DNA of 64,000 bases from Planctomycetota bacterium. Its GTDB lineage: Bacteria; Planctomycetota; UBA11346. Below are positions 1 through 30,053 of this stretch, one piece after another (position 1 is the stretch's first letter; every line of letters starts with the position of its first letter). Where the stretch lies: NCBI GenBank assembly GCA_038231435.1, contig JBBRLJ010000010.1, positions 1-64,000 of the forward strand, read 5' to 3'. The position numbers and the translations under genes are program-made. Under the pieces are notes generated by a model that had not been told where the DNA came from, ran no database searches, and worked only from the letters and a program-made list of their open reading frames with translations.

Positions 1-3000
1 GCCACGACCGGCAGCCCGGTCGGCACCTACGCGATCACCGCGTCGGGTCAGACCAGCGCGAACTACGCGATCAGCTATGTCGATGGCGTCGCGACCGTGC
101 AGAAGGCCACGCCGGTCCTGGCCTGGACGAATCCGGCCGCGATCACCTACGGCACGACGCTTGGCGCCGGCCAGCTCAACGCGAGCGTGGCAGGGGGCGT
201 GGCTGGCAGCTTCTCCTACACGCCCGCCGCGGGCACGCTGCTGAACGCCGGTGCCGGCCAGACCTTGAGCGCGACCTTCACCCCGAGCGACCTAGTCGAC
301 TACAACACCGCGTCGATCACCTCGCAGATCGACGTCAACAAGGCCACCCCGATCATCACCTGGGCGACTCCGGCGGCGATCACCTACGGTACGGGCTTGA
401 GCGCGACACAGCTGAGTGCCAGCACGCCGACGCCCGGTTCGTTCGTCTACACGCCGGTCCTGGGCACGGTGCTGAACGCGGGCAACGGCCAGACCCTGAG
501 CACGACCTTCACCCCAACCAGCACGTCGAACTACAATACCGTGATCACGACGGTGCAGATCGACGTCAACAAGGCCACCCCGGTCATCACCTGGGCGACT
601 CCGGCTGCGATCACCTACGGCACGGCCTTGAGCGCGACGCAGCTGAACGCCAGCACGCCGACGCCGGGTTCGTTCGCCTACACCCCGGCGCTCGGCACGG
701 TGCTCAATGGCGGCAACGCTCAGACCCTGAGCACGACTTTCACCCCGACGAATGCCAACTTCAGCACCGTGATCTCCACGGTCCTGATCAACGTGAACAA
801 AGCCATCCCGGTCATCACCTGGGCCAATCCTGCGAGCATCGCCTACGGCACTGCGCTCAGCGGTACCCAGTTGAACGCCAGCGCGAGCGTCCCCGGCAGC
901 TTCATCTACACGCCGGCGGCCGGCCAGGTCCTCGCTGGAGGAACTCAGACCCTCTCCACGACCTTCACCCCGACCGACAGCACCGACTACGCGGTCGTCA
1001 CGACCACCCGCAGCATCACGATCACCAAGACCCAGCTGTGGGTGACCGCCGATGACCAGTCGCGCACCTATGGAGCCGCCAATCCCGCGCTGACGGTCAG
1101 CTTCTCGGGCTTCGTCAACGGCGATACCGCGGCCAACCTTGGCGGCACCTTCAGCATCACCTCGACCGCCACCGCGACCAGCCCTGTCGGCTCTTACTCG
1201 ATCACACCATTCGGGTACACGAGCTCGAGCTACCGCATCTCGTTCGTGGTCGGCACGATGACCATCGATCCGGCGCCGCTGACGATCGTGGCTAACGATC
1301 AGACCCGCGAGTACGGCACCGCGAACTCACCCCTGACAGTCACTTATATCGGCTTCATGAATGGCGAAGGCGCAGGCGTCCTCGGTGGAAGCCTCTCGGT
1401 GACCACAACAGCGACCTCTGCGAGCGACCCCGGCACATATCCGATCACTGCCTCGGGTCAGACCAGCTCCAACTACTCGATCATCTACCAGCAGGGCACG
1501 CTGACGGTAACCAAGATCGCGACCACCATCACGTGGGCTTATCCGCTCGACATGAAGCAGGGCACGCCGCTTGGCATGCATCAGCTGAATGCCACTGGCA
1601 GCGTGCCGGGAACGCTGGCCTACTCGCCTGCCGCGGGAACCGTCCTCGCGGCCGGCACTGGCCAGACGCTCTCGGTCAGCCTCGCTCCAACCGACAGCGT
1701 CCACTACGCGACATCCAATGCGACCGTCAGCGTCAATGTCCATGTCCCGCCGACGATCATCGCTCCGGCGACATGGCAGTGCGCTGCAGGCAGCTCGATC
1801 CCCATCACCGGGGTCAGCATCACGGACGACTATGCGACGGCGAGCATGTCCCTGACTACTGTCGACGGCACGATCACACTGGGCTCGGTGCCGTCATCCT
1901 TGACGGTCACTCCAGGCGGAGCGAACTCGGTCATCGGTGTGACGCTGACCGGCTTGATCTCGGACATCAACACCGCGCTTGCCAGCCTCCAGTTCAACGC
2001 CGCGGTCGGATTCGCTACTGGCGTCGTGACCGTGGGAGTGGATGACCCGCTGTTCACGGACAGCAAGAACATCAGCGTATCGATTCCCTCACTCATCGCG
2101 CGTTGGACTTTCGACGAAGGCGCGGGAGTGATCCTGCACGACGTGACCGGCCATGGCTTGGACGGTTTGCTGCAGGAGCCGCTTTGGCAGGCGGTCGGCA
2201 AGGAGCACGGAGCCCTGATGTTCGATGGAAATCCCCACAACTGCGTCGTCAGCGACGCCCCCGCTCTGCGTGCGCAGGCTTTCACCCTCTCAGCCTGGGT
2301 GCGGCCGTCAAAGCAGCTCAAGGACATGGCCGACATCTACCCATATTTCATCACCAAGCAGAACTACGCCGGCAATGCGGGCTTCTACTTCGGCGTGCTG
2401 GACTCCCATACCAACAACATTGGCTTCCGCATCCTGGGCGGGGCGTCGAACGCCGTGCGCAAAGAAGTGCGCTTCACCGAGACTACATTCGGCCAGTGGA
2501 TCCACATGGGAGCATCTTTCGACGGAACCACCATGAAGGTCTACCGCAACGGTGTGCTCGCCGCGTCGTCGACCTTTGCTCCGTTCACCATGAACGTCGA
2601 TGCCACCCACCTGACGATGTGCCAATCCTCGTTCGAAGGCATGCTCGACGATGTCCGCATCTACAACGGCGCCCTGACCGATGTCCAGATGGCGAGCATT
2701 GTCGGCAGCCCCGCCACCGCGAGCAACGCCGCTCCCTCGGTCTCCATCGCTGGTGACCGCGTGGTCGGCTTCCCCTACGATCTCACGGTTCCTTGGACGG
2801 CCTCTGATGACGGTCTTCCCACCGGGAGTTCGGTTTCGGCTGCCTGGAGCCAGGTCAGTGGGCCAGGCGCGGCGACCTTCGTGGCTGCTGGAGCCGGATC
2901 GACCAAGTTCTCATTCTCGGCGCCCGGTCGGTATACGCTCCGCCTGAGCGCGAGCGATGGCTCTCTTACCACCAACAGCGACATCGTGATCGATGTGCTC

Positions 3001-21081: not shown

Positions 21082-22131
21082 TTAACGAGCAGCGAGTTCC
21101 GCGATGCGTCTCGCCAGGCTTTCGAGATCCTGGGTGGGCGCGTCGCATGCATTCGCGGTACACAGATAGGCGGTCGGAGACCCGCCCGGAAGGCGCGGCA
21201 TCAACGGCATGGCGGGGAAGCGCTTGCGCAGCACCTTCGACTCGGGCCGTTCGTCGAGGATAGCGATGGCGAATCCAGGCACCACGCGGCGATGGGCCGC
21301 CGAGAGCAGCGCGGTGGTGCCCGGTTCGTCAGGTCGGCCGATGAGCGTCAGGTGGAGCACCGGCGCATCGCGTTCAGCTCGCGCGAATGCCATGGGAGAC
21401 ATGGGCGTCTCGGGAGTCCTCACAGCCGGATGATCGGAAGATTCGGCGTCGACATCTGCTGCGATGATCGCGGATGCGCGAGCCGCGTAGCCGTCGTCGT
21501 CGGTGATGCGCGCCAGGCGGATGAGATTCCATGCGGCCCACCCCGTGATGGTACGTGGAAGCTTGGAACCAGGCTCGCCATACGCTGACTGCGCGCTACG
21601 CCAGCAATCGTGATCGAGGCGATCCTGGAGCTCGGCTGCCCAAGTCAGGGCCTCGGCTTGCCCACATGCCGAGTACAGGTCGATCAATCCATGGATGAGT
21701 TCGACCTGGTCCTCGATGGTCGCGGGGATGCGCGGCGGCGAGGCGGTCTGGGACAGCCCGTGCGTCGGATCCCAGGCAGTCTCATGCAGCGATGTGAACA
21801 GGCGCTGCGCGGCAGAGCGTGATTCAGGAGCATTCGCCAGGATATGGCATGTCGCCAGTGCGCCCATGACCAGACCTCGATAGCCGGTGGTCAGCGCTGC
21901 CAGGCCATCACCATGTCCCGCGAGTTCGGCGAGCGTGTGTTCAGTGATGGCGCGCTGATCGGATTCTGGGATCCCGGTCCTGAGCACGTACTCGTGGAGG
22001 ACCATCTCGATGCGGGCCGTAGCCGTGGCACCGGCGGGTTCATCCGACGTTGCGGAGTGGATACGTGCCGTGATTCCGACAGTGAGCGTGAGGGCGCACA
22101 ACATGACGCGGATGATGCCGGACCGGATCAT
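21082..22131 (-). CDS. Secreted protein resembling the C-terminal part of YyaL/DUF255 (SPATA20-like) proteins, without the N-terminal thioredoxin domain
   Basis: Motifs EDQ..LI.GLIDLY.A.G....L.WA.ELQ..LD, A..NLIRLA.IT, TAYLC....C..PT.D. Hydrophobic N-terminus. ATGA overlap with selD. Confidence 0.65.
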   Translation of the reverse strand: MIRSGIIRVMLCALTLTVGITARIHSATSDEPAGATATARIEMVLHEYVLRTGIPESDQRAITEHTLAELAGHGDGLAALTTGYRGLVMGALATCHILANAPESRSAAQRLFTSLHETAWDPTHGLSQTASPPRIPATIEDQVELIHGLIDLYSACGQAEALTWAAELQDRLDHDCWRSAQSAYGEPGSKLPRTITGWAAWNLIRLARITDDDGYAARASAIIAADVDAESSDHPAVRTPETPMSPMAFARAERDAPVLHLTLIGRPDEPGTTALLSAAHRRVVPGFAIAILDERPESKVLRKRFPAMPLMPRLPGGSPTAYLCTANACDAPTQDLESLARRIAELAAR

Positions 22132-23174
22132 ACGAAATCGATCCCCGGCGTGCCTGGGACGACTTCGCCCACCACCACCGACGGCGTATCTCCGCCATCA
22201 CGCAGCGTGCGCACCAGGGCGTCCGCGTGCGCAGGGTCGACAGCTATCAGCAGGCCACCACTCGATTGCGGATCGAACACCGCATGCGCGAGCGACGTGC
22301 TGACGGACGGCGATACAACGGCGCGATCTCCGGCGTAGAGGCGGTTCGATGCATCGCCACGGGTCAGGCAACCCGCGGCGATCGCGTTCTCGAGCCCCGG
22401 AAGCAGGGGAAGGGCAGAAGTGTCGATGCGCATGCGCACGCCGCTGGCGGAAGCGATCTCGGCACCGTGTCCGGCGAGCGAGAAGCCCGTGATATCGGTG
22501 GCAGCCCGCACCGCGAAGCGCTGCATGCAAGCGCCGGCATGGCGGTTGAGCCGCAGCAGGCTCTCGATCAGGACGCGGTGGTCAGCGGGGTCGATCAGTC
22601 CCTTCTTGGTCGCCGTGGCCATGATGCCGGTGCCCAATGCTTTGGTCAGCACCAACGCGTCGCCGACCAGCGCGCCGGCGTTGGCGAAATACCGCTCGCC
22701 CGCGCGTATCCTGCCGGTGACCGCCAAGCCGTAGGTCATCTCGGGCGCCTTGACCGAATGGCCGCCGACGATGGGACAGCGTGCCTCGGCGCACACCCGC
22801 GCGCCGCCGGCGAGGACGGCCCTGAGGATCTCGGGTCCCAGCTGTTCGGGATAGTGCACGAGGTTCAGCGCGAACAGCGGCTCGCCGCCCATGGCGTAGA
22901 CGTCTGACAGCGCGTTCGTCGCCGCGACCGCGCCGTAGGTCTCGGGGTCGTCGACGATGGGTGTGAAGAAGTCGGTGGTCGACACCAGCAGGGTGCCGTC
23001 CTCGAGCCGGTAGATGGCAGCGTCATCGCACTGGTCGAAGCCGACGAGCACGCGTGGATCGGTCGGCCAGGCGATGCCCTGCAGCGCGGCCGACAGCATG
23101 TTCGGATTCAGCTTGGCTGCGCAGCCCGCGCAGCTGACGGTCTGGGTGAGGCGAATAGGCTCGATCGCGGTCAT
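22128..23174 (-). CDS. selD: Selenide, water dikinase (Cys form)
   Basis: RLTQTVSCAGCAAKL, DDAAIY, TTDFFTPIVDDP..YG.VAA.NALSDVYAMGG, GGHS, LTKALGTG, TDITGF.L.GH..E, DPQSSGGLL. Confidence 0.96.
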   Translation of the reverse strand: MTAIEPIRLTQTVSCAGCAAKLNPNMLSAALQGIAWPTDPRVLVGFDQCDDAAIYRLEDGTLLVSTTDFFTPIVDDPETYGAVAATNALSDVYAMGGEPLFALNLVHYPEQLGPEILRAVLAGGARVCAEARCPIVGGHSVKAPEMTYGLAVTGRIRAGERYFANAGALVGDALVLTKALGTGIMATATKKGLIDPADHRVLIESLLRLNRHAGACMQRFAVRAATDITGFSLAGHGAEIASASGVRMRIDTSALPLLPGLENAIAAGCLTRGDASNRLYAGDRAVVSPSVSTSLAHAVFDPQSSGGLLIAVDPAHADALVRTLRDGGDTPSVVVGEVVPGTPGIDFV

Positions 23175-23277
23175 CGTGTTCCTCGCGGGGTGCGCTCGGT
23201 TCCTGTCATCGACTCCCCGCCGTCCGGCCTTTTCTAGGCTGTGCAGCGCTGTGTCGGGCGGAATTCCCAGCAGAGAG

Positions 23278-23371
23278 TGGCGGGACGGTGTCGGAGTCGA
23301 ACCCACCTGGGATGTTTCCACCCCACCGAGGCTTTGAAGGCCTGGGACCGCACCGGCGGCCATACCATCCC
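23278..23371 (-). tRNA. selC: tRNA-Sec (UCA)
   Basis: 94 nt. 8-bp acceptor stem GGGAUGGU/ACCGUCCC, 6-bp D stem with 4-nt loop, anticodon loop CUUCAAA, long variable arm, G73 plus encoded CCA. Lies between selB and selD. Confidence 0.96.
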
Positions 23372-23415
23372 ACCGACGTTCTAGAGCCCAGCGATCTGGC
23401 TTCCATCGCAATCCG

Positions 23416-25392
23416 CTAGGCAAAGAGTGGAATCGGCAGGTTTCGCGCCATGCCGGCCACGCGGTGATCCCCGACGCGCTTCGTGACTCCGATCGAGTCG
23501 AGCCATTCGAGTAGCGGCACCGCATCGCGTCGCGACAGGCCGTGCACCGCCTTCATCCATGCGATGTCGATCGTTCCACCTTCGGTGGTGGACGTGACAG
23601 CCGCGCGCACCAGGTCCTCGCCATGCCGACGATGCAAGTGCAGTCTGTCGTTGAGTCGCAGGAGCTGACCGCGCTCGCGCAAGGCGATGAGGGCATCTGC
23701 CGCGCGCTGGGGATCGGAGCAGGCGGCCACGCACGGATGGTCGTAGGGCGGATGGAGTCCGGCGCGATCGAAGGCGCGCAGCAATTCCGCCGCCGACGTC
23801 TCCAGGCGTTTGGCGAGGGGGGTGACCGACGCTGGCGAGGTGACGACGTCTCCGCGCCTGAGTAGGTCGCCGCACTCGACCAACGAAATGATGGCTTCAT
23901 CCCACCAGTTTCGCGCAAGCGCTGGAGCGATCGCGATGTGCAGGTCGCCAACTCCATGCCAGCAGCGGTCGGGATCGGCGCTCAGCCGGTCGGCCAGGCC
24001 TTCGCTGATCATCGTCCGCAGCTTCGTCCAGCCGGCGCTACTGCACACCAGGCGTTCCTGACCGACCTGGCGGATGACCACGCGATTCCCGGACGCATGC
24101 AGCATGTCCTCGGCCGGTCCAGGACCACCGGCCCATGCCGCCAGCGCGGACATGGTCATCGCCTGGGGATGGATGGAATCCAGGTGCGAGAGCAGGCGCT
24201 CGGCGCCACCCCCGAGACGCGAGGCGAAATGCGCCGTGGCTTCAGGTGAGAAACGGCGGTGGCGAGGCGGAGCGGCATCGACCACGCAGCCGCCGGCGAG
24301 GGTGGCGGCCGGGCTCGGACGGCGCAACACCACGAGGTCACCCGCAGAGAGGTGAAGTGGCGCCTCGAGCCGCAGCTGCGCGTCGTGCTCGCCCGCCTCC
24401 GCGTGGTCGACGTGCAAGAGATGCACGCGTGCCGGTACCGAGTCGGTGCCGTGATGCACCGTCACGCGCTCGCGGTGCGTGAGGCCGGTCGCCAGGGTGG
24501 TCAGGCGCACGTCCGCGACGAGCGTGGCCGCGAGTGCTCTGGGCGTCGCGAGCCAGGCGCCCCTGCGCACCTGGTCGTGATCGATGCCGGCGAGATTGAC
24601 GGCGGTACGTTGACCGGCCAAGGCGGTCGAGACGCCGCTCCCATCGACCTGCAGCGAACGCACGCGCACCACGCCGCCTGGATAGAGCTGCAGCTCGTCT
24701 CCAACCGCGATGGTGCCGCTGCGCAGCGTGCCGGTGACGACCGTGCCATGACCAGAAATCGTGAACACGCGGTCGATCGCGAGCCGCGCATGTTCGCCCG
24801 CTCCTGAGTGGCGCGCCGTGCGTGCGCGTTCGAGCAGCCAGGCGCGCAGGTCGTCGATGCCGGCCCCTGTCTTCGCGCTGACCGCGAGGGGGGGATGTTC
24901 TGCGAAGGGGGTGCCGGCGACGAGTGACGAGGCCAGATCGCGCGCGCGCGCGAGGCCCGCAGCGTCGACGGCGTCCGCCTTGCTCAGCACCACGCGGCCC
25001 CAACGCAGGCGCAGCAAGGTGAGGATGTCGAGATGCTCGCGGGTCTGCTGGCGCGGCCCTTCGTCAGCTGCGATGACCAGGACGCAGCCATCGACGGCGC
25101 CCACGCCCGAGACCAGGTGATGGACGAAGCGTTCATGCCCGGGGCAGTCGATGAAAGCGAGGTCGATTCCGGCGGCGCCCCCGTGCATGAACGCGAAGCC
25201 GAGCTCGATCGTCATGCCCCTGGCCTTCTCCTCCGGGAGACGGTCCGGGTCTGTTCCGGTGAGCGCTCGTACCAACGAGCTCTTGCCATGATCGACGTGT
25301 CCGGCGGTGGCGATGGTCACCTGCGGTGGGGCCGTGCGTCGCGTTCCTGCCGTTGCCGCCGACGCTCCGTGCGCTCCCTTTGCAGGAGACAC
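23416..25392 (-). CDS. selB: Selenocysteine-specific elongation factor
   Basis: TAGHVDHGKS, DRLPEEKARGMTIELGFA, DCPGHERF, DRVFTI.G.GTVVTGT, and C-terminal winged helix GLSRR.AVPLLEWLD...TKRVGD.R. GTG start inferred. Confidence 0.96.
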   Translation of the reverse strand: MSPAKGAHGASAATAGTRRTAPPQVTIATAGHVDHGKSSLVRALTGTDPDRLPEEKARGMTIELGFAFMHGGAAGIDLAFIDCPGHERFVHHLVSGVGAVDGCVLVIAADEGPRQQTREHLDILTLLRLRWGRVVLSKADAVDAAGLARARDLASSLVAGTPFAEHPPLAVSAKTGAGIDDLRAWLLERARTARHSGAGEHARLAIDRVFTISGHGTVVTGTLRSGTIAVGDELQLYPGGVVRVRSLQVDGSGVSTALAGQRTAVNLAGIDHDQVRRGAWLATPRALAATLVADVRLTTLATGLTHRERVTVHHGTDSVPARVHLLHVDHAEAGEHDAQLRLEAPLHLSAGDLVVLRRPSPAATLAGGCVVDAAPPRHRRFSPEATAHFASRLGGGAERLLSHLDSIHPQAMTMSALAAWAGGPGPAEDMLHASGNRVVIRQVGQERLVCSSAGWTKLRTMISEGLADRLSADPDRCWHGVGDLHIAIAPALARNWWDEAIISLVECGDLLRRGDVVTSPASVTPLAKRLETSAAELLRAFDRAGLHPPYDHPCVAACSDPQRAADALIALRERGQLLRLNDRLHLHRRHGEDLVRAAVTSTTEGGTIDIAWMKAVHGLSRRDAVPLLEWLDSIGVTKRVGDHRVAGMARNLPIPLFA

Positions 25393-25393
25393 C

Positions 25394-26842
25394 TCAGGCT
25401 CCTCGGTCGGTAGCCGCGTCGCGCGCGCTCGCCACGATCGCGGCCGCGAGCGCGCTGATTTCGCTTTCAGCAACGGTCCGCAAGTCGATCTGCACGACGT
25501 CCTTGGCGATGCGGGCCACCACATGCCGCCTACGCAGCGCCCGTGACAACCGGGTCGCTGACACCTGGCGCAGTACGATCAGCCAGGTCAGCGGGCCCTG
25601 GGTCGGAGCCGCGCCAGATCCGACGGCGCCTCGGCCTTCTGCGAGCTCGGCCTCCAACGAGGTCTGTGAGCCCTCGGCCCGTATGGAGGAAAGCCCAAGG
25701 GATCCCATGGCCGCGAGCAGGCGTTCAGCGCGCGCGCGCACGGAAGCGAGCGGCTCGGTGAGCATCGCGATCGTGGGAATGGCAGTGAAGGCGTCGCCGA
25801 GCAGGTAGTCCTGGAGTGTGCCCGCCAAGGCCGCGAGCGTGAGCTTGTCCGCGCGCAGAGCGCGCGCGAGCGGATGGCGCTTGCAGCGCGCGATCAGGTC
25901 GCGTTTGCCGATGAGGATGCCGGCCTGGGGTCCGCCGAGCAGCTTGTCACCGGAGAACGAGACGAGATCCGCGCCTGCGGCGAGTTCATCGCCCACGCGT
26001 GGCGCGACGATGCCCGTGGGCCCGAGATCGACGATGCAGCCGGATCCTTGGTCGACCACCACCGGCAGCTTGTGACGTGAGCCGAGGGCGGCGAGCTCCG
26101 CGGTGGAGACTTCGGCGACGAAGCCCTCTTGGACGAAGTTCGATTTGTGAACCTTCATCAGCAGCGCGGTCTGGGGCGTGATTGCGCGCTCGTAATCCTC
26201 GATGCGCGTCTTGTTGGTGGATCCGACCTCGATCAGCCGGCAGCCCGCGGCCGCCATGATCTCGGGCACGCGGAACGAACCGCCTATCTCGACCAGTTCG
26301 CCGCGGCTGACGATGACCTCACGGCCCTGGGCCAGGGCCTGCAATGCCAGCACCACCGCGCCGGCGCAGTTGTTCACCGCCAATGCCACTTCGGCGCCGG
26401 TGAGCCGGCGCAACAGGGGTTCGACATGCATCTGCCGATCGCCTCGCTCGCCGCTGTCGAGATCGTGCTCGAGCTGGCAATACCCATGAGCGATGCGCTC
26501 GACCGCGGCTTGCGCGCGAGCGCTGAGCGCGGCGCGGCCGAGACCCGTATGGAGCACCGTGCCGGTGGCGTTGATCAGCCGAGGTAGCGGTGGAGCAGCG
26601 AGCGCTCGCGCCGCGGCGCGAGCTCGATCGAGCACCATGGCGCGCAGGGCATCCTTGTCCGACGTGTCCGGGCCCGTCCCAGCCGCGGTCGCATGCTTCG
26701 CTTGGACGGACAGCGTGGCTCGCATGGCGTCGATGGCTTCGCGAGCCAACGCCGCTGCGGTCGTCGCGGGCAGGCCATCGTGGCGGAGGTCGCCGGCGAT
26801 GGCCTCGACCGCCGGCAGCAGGCGAAGCGCGTCGATCGTCAT
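25394..26842 (-). CDS. selA: L-seryl-tRNA(Sec) selenium transferase
   Basis: INATGTVLHTGLGRA, VNNCAGA, SRGELVEIGGSFRVP, EVGSTNKT, FSGDKLLGGPQAG (PLP lysine), RALRADK. Confidence 0.97.
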   Translation of the reverse strand: MTIDALRLLPAVEAIAGDLRHDGLPATTAAALAREAIDAMRATLSVQAKHATAAGTGPDTSDKDALRAMVLDRARAAARALAAPPLPRLINATGTVLHTGLGRAALSARAQAAVERIAHGYCQLEHDLDSGERGDRQMHVEPLLRRLTGAEVALAVNNCAGAVVLALQALAQGREVIVSRGELVEIGGSFRVPEIMAAAGCRLIEVGSTNKTRIEDYERAITPQTALLMKVHKSNFVQEGFVAEVSTAELAALGSRHKLPVVVDQGSGCIVDLGPTGIVAPRVGDELAAGADLVSFSGDKLLGGPQAGILIGKRDLIARCKRHPLARALRADKLTLAALAGTLQDYLLGDAFTAIPTIAMLTEPLASVRARAERLLAAMGSLGLSSIRAEGSQTSLEAELAEGRGAVGSGAAPTQGPLTWLIVLRQVSATRLSRALRRRHVVARIAKDVVQIDLRTVAESEISALAAAIVASARDAATDRGA

Positions 26843-26902
26843 GCCGGACGATGCGCTGCGGCTGACGCGGTGCAACCCTGCCAGCAGCCGATCAGGCGGG
26901 GG

Positions 26903-27835
26903 TCACTTGATCGAGGCAGCCTTCTGGCCGTAGACCGTGGAGGGGAACTTCTTGGCCAACGTCGCCATGTTCTCCTTGCCAGATTTGATGCTGTCGGGCT
27001 TGGGCGAGGCGAGCAGCTGCTGGCACTGCTGATAGATGTCGCGCGCCTTGAGTTCGTCCTTGAGCTCCTTCGCAGCCTTGAGCTCCTTCAGTCGCGCCAA
27101 GGCCTTCTTGGTGTCGAGTCCCTCGGACGCGGTCAGGAAGGCCTCGATCGCCTCGTAGGTCTCCATGGTTGCCGGAGCGCCGACCAGGTCATCTTGGCGC
27201 TTGCTCGTGGCGGCTTTCACCGCGTCGAGGATGCGCACCGCATCGGCCTGCGCCGGCGACTTCTTGCCAGCGACCGACTGCAGATTCTTGATCGCCCCGG
27301 GATACCCGCGCTCGACGCTCCACCACAGCTCCTTGATCTTCGGTTCGGTGAGACCTTCGATGGGATAATGGAAGCTGCCAGCCGCGGTGCCTTTGAGTGA
27401 CTTCAGCGTCTGGAGACCTTCGAAGTAGCCCACGCTCCCATCCGGATGCAGCATGTCGGTCTGGAGGATGTTGTTGAGGCTGATGTTCTTGCGATTGCGC
27501 GGGTCGTTGGCCCAGAGCGCATGCTCCAAACCGTAATTGTTGTCCTTATCGAAGGTCTTGAGTTCTTCCGCCGAGAGCTCGGGCGTGATCAGCACGAGCG
27601 TGACGGGGACCTTCTCGGTCTCGATGTAATCATGGATCGCCTTGGCTTCCTTCCCGAGGAAAGCTCTAGCGGATGGTCAATGCGCGCAGAAATCGACGAG
27701 CACCACGTTCTGGCCGTGGAATTGCTCGGCGCTGCGGCTCTTGCCGTCGGCGAACTGCAGGCCCTCGAGAGGATCCTGGGCGGCGAGCGCGGCTACGAAG
27801 ACCAGCGCGGCGGCGATGCGCAAGTGGGAATGCAT
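26903..27835 (-). CDS. Predicted selenoprotein (310 aa, Sec53): signal peptide + redoxin/thioredoxin-like domain + helical C-terminal domain
   Basis: ATG at 27835 with a GGAG RBS. MHSHLRIAAALVFVAALAAQD..FADGKSRSAEQFHGQNVVLVDFCAH-TGA(27679-27677)-PSARAF continues in frame into the 230-aa ORF at 27595. A hairpin follows the TGA, and the gene is directly upstream of selA. Confidence 0.85.
27638..27676 (-). promoter_or_regulatory. Candidate bacterial SECIS element
   Basis: After the UGA: lower stem CGCU/GGCG, upper stem GCUUUCCU/AGGAAGC (one bulged U), apical loop CGGGA about 20 nt downstream of the UGA. Confidence 0.6.
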
Positions 27836-27985
27836 GGGGAACTCCGATCGGTGGCTGGATGCGATCCAGCGGGCAGGACAGGAGCATCATGTCCATGGTG
27901 AATGGCGGTCAATGACCCTTAGTTAGAACCCGTTTCGGGAGCCGCTGCCTCGAATTCCTCACCCACCCGTCATAAGGCCACGCAA

Positions 27986-29170
27986 TCACATGAAGTTGGC
28001 GGTGTGCAGGTCCGAGATTTCCGCTGCCTCTTCGGTTCCAAAACCGAGTTGCCCCAGCCGGGTGCGGCGGTTTGCGTCCATCTCGGCGCGCAGCGCCTGC
28101 ACGCTATCGAACCCATTGCCGATCGCCTGCGGCGTCAGGTCGGTGGCGGCGAGGACGACCAGGGCGTCGAGCACCAGCGCATTCAGGTCGGCGGAGTTGC
28201 GCAGCGCGTCGGCACGGCGTCTGACCACCATCGCCAGCCGCGATCGTTGGCTCGGATCCAGATCGAGGTGGCGCCGCAGATGAGCGATCCCGAACGCGAC
28301 ATGTCGGCTCTCGTCCTGCACCACCAAGCGCATGATCGACCTGGTCAGCGGATCGGGTGCGTGCCGTTCGATGAAGGCCAGCAGGGTCAGGAAGGTGCCT
28401 TCGCCCATCACCGCGAGCATGAAGGATGCGAGCGTGAAATCCGGCTCGTCGAGCAGGGACTTCAGCGAACGTTGTCCGAGGACGGTTGAACGACCCACGC
28501 CGGCCGCGGTCAGCGCGAGCCTGCGGGTGAAGACCTCGCAGTGGCGCGCTTCGTCAGCGGCTTGGATCGCCAACACCTGCATGATCTCGCGGAAATGGGG
28601 ATGGACCTGTGCGAGGAAGCGCGCGGTCACCAGCAGCGCCGCGTTTTCGTTCTCGATCAGGAACGTCAGGATCTGCGCGATCGCGGCGTCCAATGCCGGG
28701 GCGACGCACGGCGGCGTCCAATCGATCGCGCGTTCGGGATCCCACTGGGCGGCGGCGGCCTGCGCGTACAGGCGGGGAGCCTCGTCGCACCATACCGTGT
28801 CGCGCTCCGAGAGCGTGAATTGGAAATCCGGTCCACCACGTTCAACCATGGCGCCGCGTGCGGCGAGGCCCCAGTGACCCGATGCATGACCCGCCATGGA
28901 AAGCGGTTTCGTGCTGTCGCCGGCGCGCGCGGTATCCGACCAGCGCTCATCTGCCAAGCCGCGCACGATGCGCCCGGTTGCCAGGGAGCCCGCCTCGGCA
29001 GGGAGGAAGCCATGGCCCATCTGGCGGCACCACGTCGCCAGATGCAGGCCGAGGTCGGAGGCCGAGCCTCGCACCGCGAGTGCGGCGCCCACCGGTACGG
29101 TGGCGAGGGCGCGATCGATCAGGAGATGAGCGCCACGATCGAGGCCGAGGCCCTCGAGATCGAGCGCCAC
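27986..29170 (-). CDS. Ferritin-like di-iron protein with an N-terminal TusA/SirA-like domain
   Basis: N-terminus LDLEGL..RAL..VPVG..L.V......L..WCRQMGH; di-iron ligands ENE, DEARH, GEG, DESRH. GTG start just after the upstream stop (alternative ATG 29230). Confidence 0.75.
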   Translation of the reverse strand: MALDLEGLGLDRGAHLLIDRALATVPVGAALAVRGSASDLGLHLATWCRQMGHGFLPAEAGSLATGRIVRGLADERWSDTARAGDSTKPLSMAGHASGHWGLAARGAMVERGGPDFQFTLSERDTVWCDEAPRLYAQAAAAQWDPERAIDWTPPCVAPALDAAIAQILTFLIENENAALLVTARFLAQVHPHFREIMQVLAIQAADEARHCEVFTRRLALTAAGVGRSTVLGQRSLKSLLDEPDFTLASFMLAVMGEGTFLTLLAFIERHAPDPLTRSIMRLVVQDESRHVAFGIAHLRRHLDLDPSQRSRLAMVVRRRADALRNSADLNALVLDALVVLAATDLTPQAIGNGFDSVQALRAEMDANRRTRLGQLGFGTEEAAEISDLHTANFM

Positions 29171-29171
29171 C

Positions 29172-30053
29172 TCAGTACTGGTAGTCGCGGGCGATGATGC
29201 GTCCGGAGGCGTCGTAGAAGGCGAGGGCATCGACGGCCTCCTCCAGGGCTTGGTAGTGGGACGCGCGTCCGTCGCGCCAGGCTTTCAAGCCTTCGAGATC
29301 GAGCAGCGGTCTGACGTCGGCGTCCGCATAGGACATTCCCAGCAGCAGCGTGCGGAAATCGGCGAGAGGTCCGCGCGCGAGCGTCGCGCTGTCACCATTG
29401 GCCGTGAGCGCGGTGAAGTTGCAATGATCGTAGGGTTCCGTCCGCGCCAGGACGTGCACCGCTCCTGGTCCAATCAGCCTCTCGTGGGTGAACAGCAGGT
29501 GGTTCGCATCGATGATGCAGGCGGCATCGGCCTCGCCCCGCACCAAGGCTCGTACCGCCTCGCGCTCGCCGCCGATGTGATCGCCATGTTTGCCGACGTG
29601 CAGGTCGAAGCGCTTGACTGCCACATCGCTGCCAGGACGAAGGCCGGCGCGCAGGACCAGGCCGAGCGGGATCAAGGTCGACTGTGGCGAGTCGATGGCG
29701 CCGGTGGCGATGGTCCGACCGCGCAGATCCGCGATCGTCTTCGTGGGTGTGTCGGCGCGCACCAGGATGAGCGAGGTCAGATCCTGGTCGGTGTCACGCA
29801 TGGCGACCGCATGGGCGGTGAGTCCAGAGGCCACGGCCAGGCGACGAGTTCGCACCCACGCGAGCGGAGAATTCCAGGCGACGCCGATGTGGCCAGCCAT
29901 GAGCGCTTCGACCTGCCGCTCGTAGTTGCTGTACAGGACGACGTCGACATCGAGTCCCTTGCGCAGGAACCAGGCCTGGAAGCCCTCCCAGATCGTCACG
30001 ACCTTCGGATCATAGGCGACCGCGCCGAGCACGAGCCGAGCATGCGCGCTCAT
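29172..30053 (-). CDS. PhnD/SsuA-type substrate-binding-fold protein with no signal peptide
   Basis: Y..QVEAL..G.I.VAWNSP..WV, S.ILVRAD.....DLRGR.IA.G..DS.QS...P, AV.AL..G.ADAA. Confidence 0.8.
   Translation of the reverse strand: MSAHARLVLGAVAYDPKVVTIWEGFQAWFLRKGLDVDVVLYSNYERQVEALMAGHIGVAWNSPLAWVRTRRLAVASGLTAHAVAMRDTDQDLTSLILVRADTPTKTIADLRGRTIATGAIDSPQSTLIPLGLVLRAGLRPGSDVAVKRFDLHVGKHGDHIGGEREAVRALVRGEADAACIIDANHLLFTHERLIGPGAVHVLARTEPYDHCNFTALTANGDSATLARGPLADFRTLLLGMSYADADVRPLLDLEGLKAWRDGRASHYQALEEAVDALAFYDASGRIIARDYQY

What the first reader, a model, noticed from the sequence alone, without database searches (positions are those of the whole stretch)
26903..27835. Hidden exported thioredoxin-like selenoprotein at the head of the selA-selB-selC-selD genes
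Seen: the ORF track starts this gene at 27595, but the same frame extends 80 codons upstream through a single TGA (27679-27677) to an ATG with a GGAG RBS and a signal-peptide-like N-terminus. The read-through product is 310 aa. The TGA follows a redoxin-like strand (GQNVVLVDF-C-A-H-U-P-S-A), where TlpA/AhpC-type proteins have their catalytic Cys. It reads either as CxxU or as U-P-x-x with no resolving Cys. The C-terminal ~130 aa is helical and ends LAKKFPSTVYGQKA. Established: SelA, SelB, SelC and SelD decode UGA as Sec, and Trx-fold proteins are the commonest Sec hosts. Inference: this is an exported selenoprotein of a family I do not recognise, encoded beside its own decoding machinery, and ordinary gene callers would truncate it.
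Basis: partly seen in the sequence, partly recalled or inferred. Interest (0 to 1): 0.92.

Follow-up and report, generated by a model that had tools for sequence, protein, structure and literature searches.

The report
Exported thioredoxin-like selenoprotein, truncated by annotation
This gene really does encode an exported redox protein that uses the rare amino acid selenocysteine at its active site. It sits directly in front of the genes that make selenocysteine, but it is one more example of a well-known class of proteins, not a new kind of system.

Summary
The minus-strand ORF 27835-26906 (310 codons) has one in-frame TGA at codon 53. It lies 27 nt upstream of selA-selB-tRNA-Sec-selD.

Evidence that the TGA encodes Sec:
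- Twelve homologous genes from 11 Planctomycetota genomes carry a TGA in the same alignment column.
- Among the 150 best family representatives, 90 of the 94 that cover that column have Cys there.
- A small hairpin 12 nt downstream keeps its pairing through compensatory changes.
- All 8 TGA-form genomes in a 401-genome sample have SelA.

The AlphaFold model (pLDDT 93) shows a TlpA/ResA/Prx-like thioredoxin fold with Sec53 at the N-cap of helix α1, followed by a 150-residue helical domain. That helical domain is remotely homologous to the C-terminal domain of the VPGUxxT (seleno)protein family.

The protein matches no Pfam or NCBIfam model at E <= 0.01. Public protein collections hold it only as a truncated 230-aa product.

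Sec forms in the window's own taxonomic family are usually adjacent to sel genes. In this genome I found no other selenoprotein candidate.

Verdict: a genuine, mis-annotated selenoprotein and a new member of a known kind (Trx-fold selenoproteins). Its substrate is unknown. Interest is moderate.

The parts
26906..27835 (-). Full coding sequence of the selenoprotein (310 codons; stop TGA at 26905-26903)
   Evidence: Read-through translation. Full-length Cys homologues cover 92-99% of it. AF2 model has pLDDT 93.1.
27842..27845 (-). GGAG ribosome-binding site, 6 nt before the ATG at 27835-27833
   Evidence: Read directly from the sequence.
27776..27835 (-). Signal-peptide-like N-terminus (residues 1-20: MHSHLRIAAALVFVAALAAQ)
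   Evidence: Basic residues, a hydrophobic stretch and an A-x-A site read from the sequence. pLDDT is 54-59 for the first 20 residues. Every full-length homologue has an equivalent hydrophobic N-terminus. SignalP was not run.
27677..27679 (-). In-frame TGA = selenocysteine codon 53
   Evidence: Twelve homologous genes have TGA in the same column. Cys occupies it in 90 of 94 representatives that cover the column. Contigs from other samples keep it.
27645..27664 (-). SECIS-like hairpin starting 12 nt after the UGA: GCUU-U(bulge)-CCU[CGGGA]AGG-AAGC
   Evidence: RNAalifold on 4 Sec forms of subfamily A gives 7 pairs, 0 broken, 3 pairs with changes on both sides, and the bulged U kept in 4 of 4. 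SelB binding is not tested.
27371..27772 (-). Thioredoxin-fold (TlpA/ResA/Prx-like) domain, residues ~22-155, active site C50-A-H-U53-P
   Evidence: Foldseek against PDB: ResA E 6e-5, also TlpA, Sco and CcmG. VIA-align Z 10-12 over residues 16-155.
26906..27358 (-). C-terminal all-helical domain (residues 160-310, 8 helices)
   Evidence: Domain model has pLDDT 96.5. hhalign to the VPGUxxT C-terminal domain gives probability 88.9%, E 2.4e-6. No significant PDB fold match.
25394..26875 (-). selA (L-seryl-tRNA(Sec) selenium transferase), 27 nt downstream of the selenoprotein's stop codon
   Evidence: PF03841, E 1.3e-126.
23416..25524 (-). selB (Sec-specific elongation factor); this is the mechanical ORF, and the true start is probably further in
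   Evidence: GTP_EFTU, Beta-barrel_SelB and SelB-wing_3.
23278..23371 (-). selC, tRNA-Sec (anticodon TCA)
   Evidence: ARAGORN. Rfam RF01852, 72.3 bits.
22128..23168 (-). selD (selenide, water dikinase); start approximate
   Evidence: TIGR00476, E 3.6e-103 on residues 125-433 of the 465-aa mechanical ORF.

Best explanation
The gene encodes a 310-residue exported selenoprotein.

Decoding (inferred from established knowledge of SelA, SelB, SelC and SelD). UGA53 is read as selenocysteine by the selA-selB-selC-selD products encoded immediately downstream, probably on the same transcript. SelB would be recruited by a small bulged hairpin that begins 12 nt after the UGA.

The protein. After a Sec-type signal peptide comes a TlpA/ResA/AhpC-superfamily thioredoxin-fold domain. 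Sec53 sits at the N-cap of helix α1. This is the position of the attacking (N-terminal) cysteine of the canonical C-P-x-C motif, which more distant family members still have. In this subfamily the usual resolving Cys at +3 is Ala, and a Cys at -3 (C50) has taken its place. So the motif looks like CxxU but works as U-P-x-x with an upstream partner.

Proposed chemistry (inferred). The selenolate attacks an oxidised substrate in the periplasm, either a protein disulfide or sulfenate, or a peroxide. C50 then resolves the adduct as a selenenylsulfide, and a membrane electron shuttle of the CcdA/DsbD type re-reduces it.

The C-terminal helical repeat domain is shared with the VPGUxxT selenoprotein family. 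It most likely docks the substrate or a partner (inferred).

In this genome it is the only client of the Sec machinery that I could find. That would explain why the two are kept together as one module.
For: Sec decoding
- The TGA aligns with Cys in all 8 full-length database homologues, and in 90 of the 94 best representatives that cover the column.
- Twelve genes from 11 genomes have TGA in that same column, in three subfamilies: CxxUP, CxxU[AG]GF and UPxC.
- A tree of 28 rows needs 5 Sec/Cys changes, at least 4 of them forced by well-supported branches.
- The hairpin has 7 pairs, 0 broken, 3 compensatory, with a conserved bulged U. Subfamilies B and C have their own hairpins 11-18 nt after the UGA.
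- All 8 TGA-form genomes among 401 sampled have SelA. Among the 15 genomes whose matches have no TGA, 5 have SelA.
- The TGA is confirmed in contigs from other samples.

Fold and register
- Model pLDDT is 93.1, with strand 42-49 and helix 54-74.
- Top fold matches are ResA, TlpA, Sco and Prx.
- Intermediate homologues read SGxC/UPxC, and distant ones read [EW]CPxC.
- Subfamily C passes the Pfam cut-offs for AhpC-TSA, Redoxin and Thioredoxin_8.

C-terminal domain
- 12 of 25 family members weakly match NF041382.
- hhalign gives probability 88.9%.

Module
- The gap to selA is 27 nt, and no terminator-like site lies between them.
- Sec forms lie beside sel genes in 5 of 5 subfamily-B loci, and in own/G023/G257 of subfamily A.
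- The genome's only molybdopterin oxidoreductase has no in-frame stop.
- A codon-usage screen of all in-frame TGAs left 51 candidates. None besides this gene had a Pfam domain spanning the TGA.
- A DsbD_TM gene is present in the genome, and one is adjacent to the G257 Sec form.
Against: - There are no data on selenium incorporation or on expression. No RNA run was available.
- The hairpin is small. The 76-nt stretch after the UGA folds no better than shuffles (-13.4 kcal/mol against a mean of -17.2, z +1.32).
- The same region of Cys forms folds with similar energies.
- No Rfam SECIS family matches.
- The window's own protein reaches no Pfam or NCBIfam model at E <= 0.01.
- The role of C50 as resolving residue is not general. 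The same-genus homologue reads A-G-D-C-P with no second Cys. Of the 90 representatives with Cys53, 14 have Cys at neither 50 nor 56. This fits a one-Cys (peroxidase-like or externally resolved) mechanism at least as well.
- Four of 94 representatives, and L018, lack Cys/Sec at the site altogether.
- Neighbours of homologues show no conserved redox partner.
- Export is inferred from the sequence only.
- The selenoproteome screen has unknown sensitivity, and the genome is 87.6% complete.
Confidence: 0.7

Rival explanations
1. The protein is a genuine selenoprotein, but it works as a one-Sec peroxidase (peroxiredoxin-like). Sec53 reduces peroxides in the periplasm to a selenenic acid. Residue 50 (C/S/A) plays the role of the Prx Thr/Ser at -3 and is not an obligatory resolving thiol.
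For: - Position 50 corresponds to the Thr of the Prx T-x-x-C motif. Many homologues read S-G-x-C-P with no second Cys: 14 of 90 are one-Cys forms, as is the same-genus homologue.
- Prx/BCP structures match as well as ResA does (Z 10.5-11.3).
- Distant members match AhpC-TSA above the cut-off.
- Atlas neighbours are named peroxiredoxin family (queried with the Cys homologue P0005).
Against: - The PxxxTxxC/U signature quoted for Sec-Prx in PMC13188914 (passages seen) is not present. Position -7 is Leu and position -3 is Cys.
- Distant members keep a classical C-P-x-C dithiol motif.
- No Prx NCBIfam model matches.
Confidence: 0.2
2. The protein handles selenium itself, or a soft metal, in the periplasm. 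It might reduce or bind selenite/selenotrisulfide or Cu/Hg in a Sco-like manner and feed SelD. That would be why it is kept next to the sel genes.
For: - Linkage to selA/selB/selD is conserved in two paralogous subfamilies.
- There are weak SCO1/SenC matches in 5 of 25 members, best E 0.0019, and Sco structures appear among the fold matches.
- His52 is conserved beside the Sec.
Against: - Of the 15 genomes whose matches have no TGA, 10 have no detectable SelA, including genomes 94-99% complete. The family's job therefore does not depend on selenium metabolism.
- No Cys form lies beside sel genes.
- Linkage is equally explained by co-inheritance of a Sec module with its only client.
Confidence: 0.07
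3. The TGA is a true stop (a nonsense mutation, a sequencing error or two genes). The real product would then be the 230-aa protein from GTG 27595, or the gene is dead.
For: - Gene callers produce the 230-aa form.
- The downstream region shows no exceptional folding energy.
Against: - TGA sits in the same column in 12 genes from 11 genomes.
- Conservation is strong upstream of the TGA, including the signal peptide and strand β1.
- The 230-aa form would lack the signal peptide, β1 and the active site of a confidently modelled single domain.
- The TGA is present in contigs from other samples.
- The complete Sec machinery lies adjacent.
Confidence: 0.02

Closest known systems
VPGUxxT family thioredoxin-like (seleno)protein, type 1 (NCBIfam NF041382; listed as 'hypothetical protein OS_HP5' in Table 1 of PMC13188914)
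   Same: Both are two-domain proteins of ~310-350 aa. Each has an N-terminal hydrophobic leader, a Trx-like domain with Sec just before helix α1, and a C-terminal helical domain. The helical domain is homologous: hhalign probability 88.9%, E 2.4e-6 over own residues 172-309, and 12 of 25 family members match the model's C-terminal part. True members occur in Planctomycetota, each with one TGA (4 of 401 genomes).
   Different: The window's protein scores 13.9 bits against a cut-off of 350. The motif is F-C-[AG]-H-U-P instead of V-P-G-U-x-x-C/T. The N-terminal domains did not align in hhalign. No match was found in the window's own genome or family at E 1e-20.
[quoted passage not shown]
   Same: The fold matches (Foldseek E 6e-5 to ResA; VIA Z 10-12). 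Both are exported. The catalytic Cys/Sec sits at the N-cap of α1. Distant members of the same superfamily (subfamily C, U/C-P-x-C) pass the AhpC-TSA, Redoxin and Thioredoxin_8 cut-offs and weakly match the ResA, TlpA and StoA models.
   Different: The window's own subfamily passes no model. The resolving Cys at +3 is lost and a Cys lies at -3. There is an extra 150-residue helical domain. Membership of CDD cd02966 could not be tested here.
Peroxiredoxins (Prx/BCP, Sec form TxxU)
   Same: Same fold class (Z ~10-11). The catalytic residue is at the same structural position. Position -3 is occupied by S/C in many members.
   Different: There is no PxxxT signature and no match to any Prx model for the window's protein.
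Rdx/SelW-like CxxU selenoproteins (PF10262)
   Same: The motif looks like CxxU and lies between β1 and α1 of a Trx-like fold.
   Different: There is no match to PF10262. Here the Sec aligns with the first Cys of C-P-x-C, not the second. The protein is also exported and much larger.

Membership tests
Bacterial selenoprotein gene (UGA decoded as Sec) | In-frame UGA aligned with Cys (or UGA) in homologues, with conservation on both sides | tested here: met
   12 TGA forms, and Cys in 90 of 94 representatives covering the column.
Bacterial selenoprotein gene (UGA decoded as Sec) | SECIS hairpin immediately downstream of the UGA | tested here: inconclusive
   The hairpin at +15..+34 is kept with compensatory changes in 4 of 4 subfamily-A Sec forms. 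However, the region's folding energy is no better than shuffles, there is no Rfam match, and neither bSECISearch nor SelB binding was available.
Bacterial selenoprotein gene (UGA decoded as Sec) | selA, selB, selC and selD present in the genome | tested here: met
   all four are adjacent.
Bacterial selenoprotein gene (UGA decoded as Sec) | Selenium actually incorporated (75Se labelling or MS) | not testable with these tools
No RNA run was listed.
TlpA/ResA-like thioredoxin-fold oxidoreductase (AhpC-TSA / Redoxin clan) | Thioredoxin fold with the active-site residue at the N-terminus of helix α1 | tested here: met
TlpA/ResA-like thioredoxin-fold oxidoreductase (AhpC-TSA / Redoxin clan) | Score above the curated cut-off of PF00578, PF08534 or PF13905 | tested here: not met
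   0 families for the window's protein at E <= 0.01. At E <= 5 the only matches are SCO1-SenC (0.19) and a TPR model. Subfamily C members do pass.
TlpA/ResA-like thioredoxin-fold oxidoreductase (AhpC-TSA / Redoxin clan) | C-x-x-C dithiol motif with the resolving Cys at +3 | tested here: not met
   Position 56 is Ala, and the partner Cys is at -3.
VPGUxxT thioredoxin-like (seleno)protein, NF041382 | Score at or above the curated cut-off (350 bits), and the V-P-G-U motif | tested here: not met
   13.9 bits, E 0.025, C-terminal part only. The motif is FCAHUP.
VPGUxxT thioredoxin-like (seleno)protein, NF041382 | Homologous C-terminal helical domain | tested here: met
   hhalign probability 88.9%, E 2.4e-6, 138 columns.
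Peroxiredoxin | PxxxTxxC/U signature (as quoted in PMC13188914) and a match to a Prx model | tested here: not met
   Leu at -7 and Cys at -3. No Prx family.
Other catalogued CxxU Trx-like selenoproteins that have NCBIfam/Pfam models (Prx-SUH NF045827, Trx7/PDZ NF041199, SelW-like PF10262) | Match to the family model | tested here: not met
   None of these appears, even at E <= 5, for any of the 25 family members.

The most novel reading that the evidence does not exclude
The sel operon and this gene form a self-contained 'selenocysteine island' in which the Sec machinery is kept for one client. That client, an exported Sec enzyme whose partner cysteine has moved from +3 to -3, acts in the periplasmic handling of selenium or another chalcogen or soft metal and feeds the pathway that makes it. 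It would be a functional loop, not just co-inheritance. Two paralogous subfamilies would have been recruited to the sel genes independently.
Probability: 0.1. Interest if true: 0.7.

Novelty: new member of a known kind. Interest (0 to 1): 0.38.

Why it matters
- It corrects an annotation error that recurs. The window's product, and 40 of the 150 best family representatives, appear in protein collections only as N-terminally truncated proteins lacking the signal peptide and active site.
- It adds a family-level group to the catalogue of bacterial Trx-fold selenoproteins. The profile search found 462 representative clusters at E <= 0.001, and the window's own subfamily is not covered by Pfam or NCBIfam.
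- It gives a clean natural series for studying how Sec and its partner thiol are arranged on one scaffold: C-x-x-U-P-x-A, S-x-x-U-P-x-C and E-x-x-U-P-x-C, each with Cys counterparts.
- It offers a simple system for asking why a lineage keeps the costly Sec trait. The apparent 'one machinery, one client' module occurs in a Planctomycetota family where SelA is patchy (7 of 23 genomes).

None of this changes the understanding of Sec decoding or of thioredoxin-fold chemistry.

Tried and rejected
- **Rfam** (E <= 5, 22000-28200): only tRNA-Sec, no SECIS family.
- **Folding energy**: it does not separate Sec from Cys forms.
- **Expression**: no RNA holder was listed among the 7 runs.
- **The search for related loci**: The narrower A3 gave 3 loci in genome contigs and 1 in metagenome contigs, so most truncated database homologues could not be checked at the DNA level.
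- **C-terminal domain fold**: Foldseek's best match was E 0.16 (BamD), and VIA-align's best was Z 6.7, below the level that means anything for helical repeats. I can call it only a generic helical/TPR-like arrangement. Weak YfiO/YbgF sequence matches appear in a few members.
- **Neighbourhoods of 32 homologous loci** (87 flanking ORFs scanned): no recurrent partner other than the sel genes.
- **Promoter/terminator scan**: nothing informative.
- **Selenoproteome screen of the genome**: 19,904 raw in-frame TGAs reduced to 51 after a codon-usage filter, scanned as 47 regions. Those with Pfam matches were pairs of adjacent genes, an antisense 'NAD-GH' artefact, or a receiver-domain fragment whose domain lies wholly downstream of the TGA. 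None had a domain across the TGA. Sensitivity is unknown.
- **selU (TIGR03167)**: not found in the 87.6%-complete genome.
- **The 349-aa gene after selD**: no significant similarity to the DUF255 neighbour of a Cys homologue, and no PDB sequence relative.
- **Protein Atlas**: it does not accept the recoded protein.
- **Literature**: four full-text searches found no description of this family or of a sel-linked TlpA-like selenoprotein in Planctomycetota. PMC4807772 Table S9 (read) lists 'thiol-disulfide isomerase-like thioredoxin' candidates in another planctomycete, but without sequences, so identity with this family cannot be judged. BSepDB's supplementary family table was not read.
- **The search of earlier findings**: returned nothing for this region.
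Full report
**What is there.**
- On the minus strand the mechanical ORF list gives a 230-aa ORF, 26903..27595, starting at GTG.
- The same frame continues 80 codons upstream through one TGA (27679-27677) to the ATG at 27835. GGAG lies 6 nt before the ATG.
- Reading TGA as Sec gives 310 residues with the local sequence VVLVDF-C-A-H-U-P-S-A.
- selA starts 27 nt after the stop codon. It is followed on the same strand by selB, tRNA-Sec (anticodon TCA), selD and an uncharacterised 349-aa ORF whose start overlaps the selD stop.
- No terminator-like site lies between the gene and selA.
- The window's protein matches no Pfam or NCBIfam family at E <= 0.01.

**The TGA is real and conserved.**
- Contigs of a second sample cover 27627-27816 with no difference. 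A ~94%-identical contig from a different study covers the codon with no listed change, though 12 of that run's differences were not displayed.
- The word-indexed protein search found 21 relatives. The 8 full-length ones (303-322 aa, 92-99% coverage) all read F-C-[GA]-[HN]-C-P, with Cys aligned to codon 53. The other 13 start shortly after the motif.
- Six-frame searches of 41 relatives and then of 401 genomes of the phylum found further copies. Relatives' records are titled Planctomycetota.
- After extracting the DNA I count 12 genes in 11 genomes with an in-frame TGA, every one in the column of U53.
- A profile search of 1.84 billion representatives found 462 proteins at E <= 0.001 (206 at 1e-10, 72 at 1e-30).
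- Of the 150 best, 94 cover the column. Ninety have Cys and 4 have W, H, N or A.
- Of the 56 that do not cover it, 40 begin at positions 57-96 and run to the C-terminus. This is the signature of a gene call restarted after a stop. The other 16 are fragments. For one of the 40 (P0023 = L005) I verified the upstream TGA.

**Three subfamilies and the register of the motif.**
- Subfamily A (the window's) reads C-x-x-C/U-P-x-A.
- Subfamily B is 21-24% identical and reads F-C-R/K-x-U-[AG]-G-F. All 5 copies seen are Sec forms.
- Subfamily C (~330 aa) reads E-E-x-C/U-P-x-C or W-C-P-x-C.
- Intermediates such as S-G-H-U-P-H-C (L035) and S-G-x-C-P-x-C fix the register. Position 53 is the first, attacking Cys of the classical C-P-x-C, position 56 is the classical resolving Cys, and position 50 is C, S, A or E.
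- A maximum-likelihood tree of 28 full-length rows needs 5 Sec/Cys changes, at least 4 forced by well-supported branches. I left out the partial rows L002, L040 and L023, the duplicates L021/L022, and all database proteins.

**SECIS.**
- In the 4 subfamily-A Sec forms a hairpin starts 12 nt after the UGA: a lower stem, a bulged U, an upper stem, and a loop of CGGGA or GGU.
- RNAalifold finds 7 pairs with none broken. Three pairs change on both sides, and the bulged U is present in 4 of 4.
- Subfamily B has a first hairpin 11-15 nt after the UGA and a second, better-conserved bulged hairpin at +31..+53, which has two compensatory pairs. Subfamily C has GG-loop hairpins 17-18 nt after the UGA.
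- Against this, the 76 nt after the window's UGA fold no better than shuffles (z +1.32). Cys forms fold with similar energies. No Rfam SECIS model matches.
- The resemblance to the E. coli fdhF element (bulged U, G-U in the loop) is recalled from memory, not tested.

**Sec machinery.**
- SelA occurs in 290 of 401 sampled genomes of the phylum, but in only 7 of 23 of the window's own family.
- All 8 genomes of that sample with a TGA form have SelA. Of the 15 whose matches have no TGA, 5 have it and 10 do not, including genomes 94-99% complete.
- G009 and G024 (TGA forms, seen only) also have SelA. G018 (72% complete) does not, but selB and selD lie on the same contig as its gene.

**Linkage.**
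- Sec forms lie directly beside sel genes in 5 of 5 subfamily-B loci. Four are divergent from selA, and one lies downstream of selB-selD.
- In subfamily A they lie beside sel genes in the window and in G023. In G257 the gene lies between a DsbD_TM gene and a SelD-like gene.
- L023 has the same gene-selA-selB-selD order, but its N-terminus is cut off by the contig end.
- L005 and the 3 subfamily-C Sec forms are not linked, and no Cys form is.

**Structure.**
- With a 25-row alignment AlphaFold2 gives pLDDT 93.1. Residues 1-20 have low confidence, which fits a signal peptide.
- The elements are strand 42-49, U53, helix 54-74, further Trx-fold elements to ~155, and then 8 helices.
- Foldseek's best PDB matches are ResA, TlpA, Sco, CcmG and BCP (E 6e-5 to 1e-3). 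VIA-align against 48,161 chains gives Z 10-12 over residues 16-155 for the same set.
- The C-terminal domain modelled alone (pLDDT 96.5) has no significant PDB match.
- Twelve of 25 family members weakly match the C-terminal part of NCBIfam NF041382, the VPGUxxT thioredoxin-like (seleno)protein. The window's protein scores E 0.025; the best member scores 1.7e-5.
- Profile-profile comparison with 4 true VPGUxxT members, each carrying one TGA, gives probability 88.9%, E 2.4e-6 over own residues 172-309.
- Subfamily C passes the AhpC-TSA, Redoxin and Thioredoxin_8 cut-offs.
- Language-model neighbours of a Cys homologue are Planctomycetota clusters carrying those domains.

**Function.**
- Shown: a Sec/Cys catalytic site on a TlpA/Prx-like fold, a leader peptide, and a helical domain shared with another selenoprotein family.
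- Inferred: a periplasmic selenol-based oxidoreductase in which Sec53 attacks, C50 resolves and a CcdA/DsbD-type shuttle recycles the enzyme. One such gene is in the genome, and one lies beside the G257 copy.
- The main rival is a one-Sec peroxidase. It is favoured by the many one-Cys relatives: 14 of 90 representatives, and the same-genus homologue.
- A role in selenium handling is unlikely, because Cys forms are found in genomes where SelA was not detected.

**The module.**
- In this 87.6%-complete genome I found no other selenoprotein candidate.
- The single molybdopterin oxidoreductase has no in-frame stop.
- In a screen of all in-frame TGAs (19,904 raw, 51 after a codon-usage filter) only this gene lacked a two-gene or artefact explanation.
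- selU was not found.
- The sel genes may therefore be maintained for this one client. This would account for the linkage without any functional loop.

**Comparison with the literature.**
- Table 1 of the 2026 review PMC13188914 (passages seen) lists more than 100 prokaryotic selenoprotein families. Among them are several TlpA/Redoxin/Trx-like ones and the VPGUxxT family.
- None that has a Pfam or NCBIfam model matches the window's protein. The families defined by CDD cd02966 could not be tested.
- PMC4807772 (passages and Table S9 read) reports Trx-like selenoprotein candidates in another planctomycete, but gives no sequences.
- Four full-text searches found no description of this family.

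**Verdict.** The finding is correct and the annotation should be fixed. It is another thioredoxin-fold selenoprotein family, remotely tied to catalogued ones, and not a new kind of system.

Noticed in passing
window 21082-22131 (-): A 349-aa ORF with a signal-peptide-like N-terminus starts 4 nt before the selD stop, so it is probably translationally coupled to selD. It has no Pfam or NCBIfam family. Its only matches are weak (α/α)6-barrel-type ones (GH127 and GlcNAc/cellobiose 2-epimerase, E 0.1-0.3). A 34%-identical relative follows selD in L023. It could be an unrecognised accessory gene of the sel operon.
   Followed up: partly
L013, L014, L015, L016, L017 (G009, G019, G016, G018, G024): A paralogous subfamily (motif F-C-R/K-x-U-[AG]-G-F, 21-24% identical to the window's protein) was seen only as Sec forms (5 of 5). 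Every copy is adjacent to selA/selB/selD. Four of these five genomes (G009, G018, G019, G024) also carry a subfamily-A copy elsewhere.
   Followed up: partly
L035 (G257:C119): The Sec form reading S-G-H-U-P-H-C lies between a DsbD_TM (CcdA-like) membrane protein gene and a divergently transcribed SelD-like gene (41% identical to the window's SelD). This suggests a reductant supply for the enzyme.
   Followed up: no
L055-L058 and the match table: True VPGUxxT type-1 selenoproteins (each with 1 TGA) occur in one Planctomycetota family (4 of 401 genomes). A further 29 of the 61 listed matches, which cover the N-terminal domain only, also carry a single in-frame TGA (one of them also has a TAG). 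The phylum therefore looks rich in Trx-like selenoproteins that gene callers would split.
   Followed up: no
tallies: SelA is found in 290 of 401 sampled Planctomycetota genomes but in only 7 of 23 of the window's own family. The Sec trait is patchy there.
   Followed up: partly
window 27986-30053 (-): Directly upstream lie an AurF-like diiron oxygenase homologue (414 aa) and a PhnD-type periplasmic binding protein. The same pair precedes the selenoprotein gene in G023 (L002, 68% and ~75% identity).
   Followed up: no
L018 (G005) and representatives P0047, P0079, P0086: Some family members have lost the redox motif entirely (for example Y-M-A-D-D-D-W-N-G) while keeping the rest of both domains. 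The scaffold therefore also has a non-catalytic use.
   Followed up: no
L015 (G016:C11), ORF 1810-2811 (-): A transglutaminase-core protein lies next to the subfamily-B selenoprotein and selA-selB. PMC4807772 (Fig 6 legend, passage seen) also shows a transglut_core gene inside a planctomycete Sec-insertion operon.
   Followed up: no
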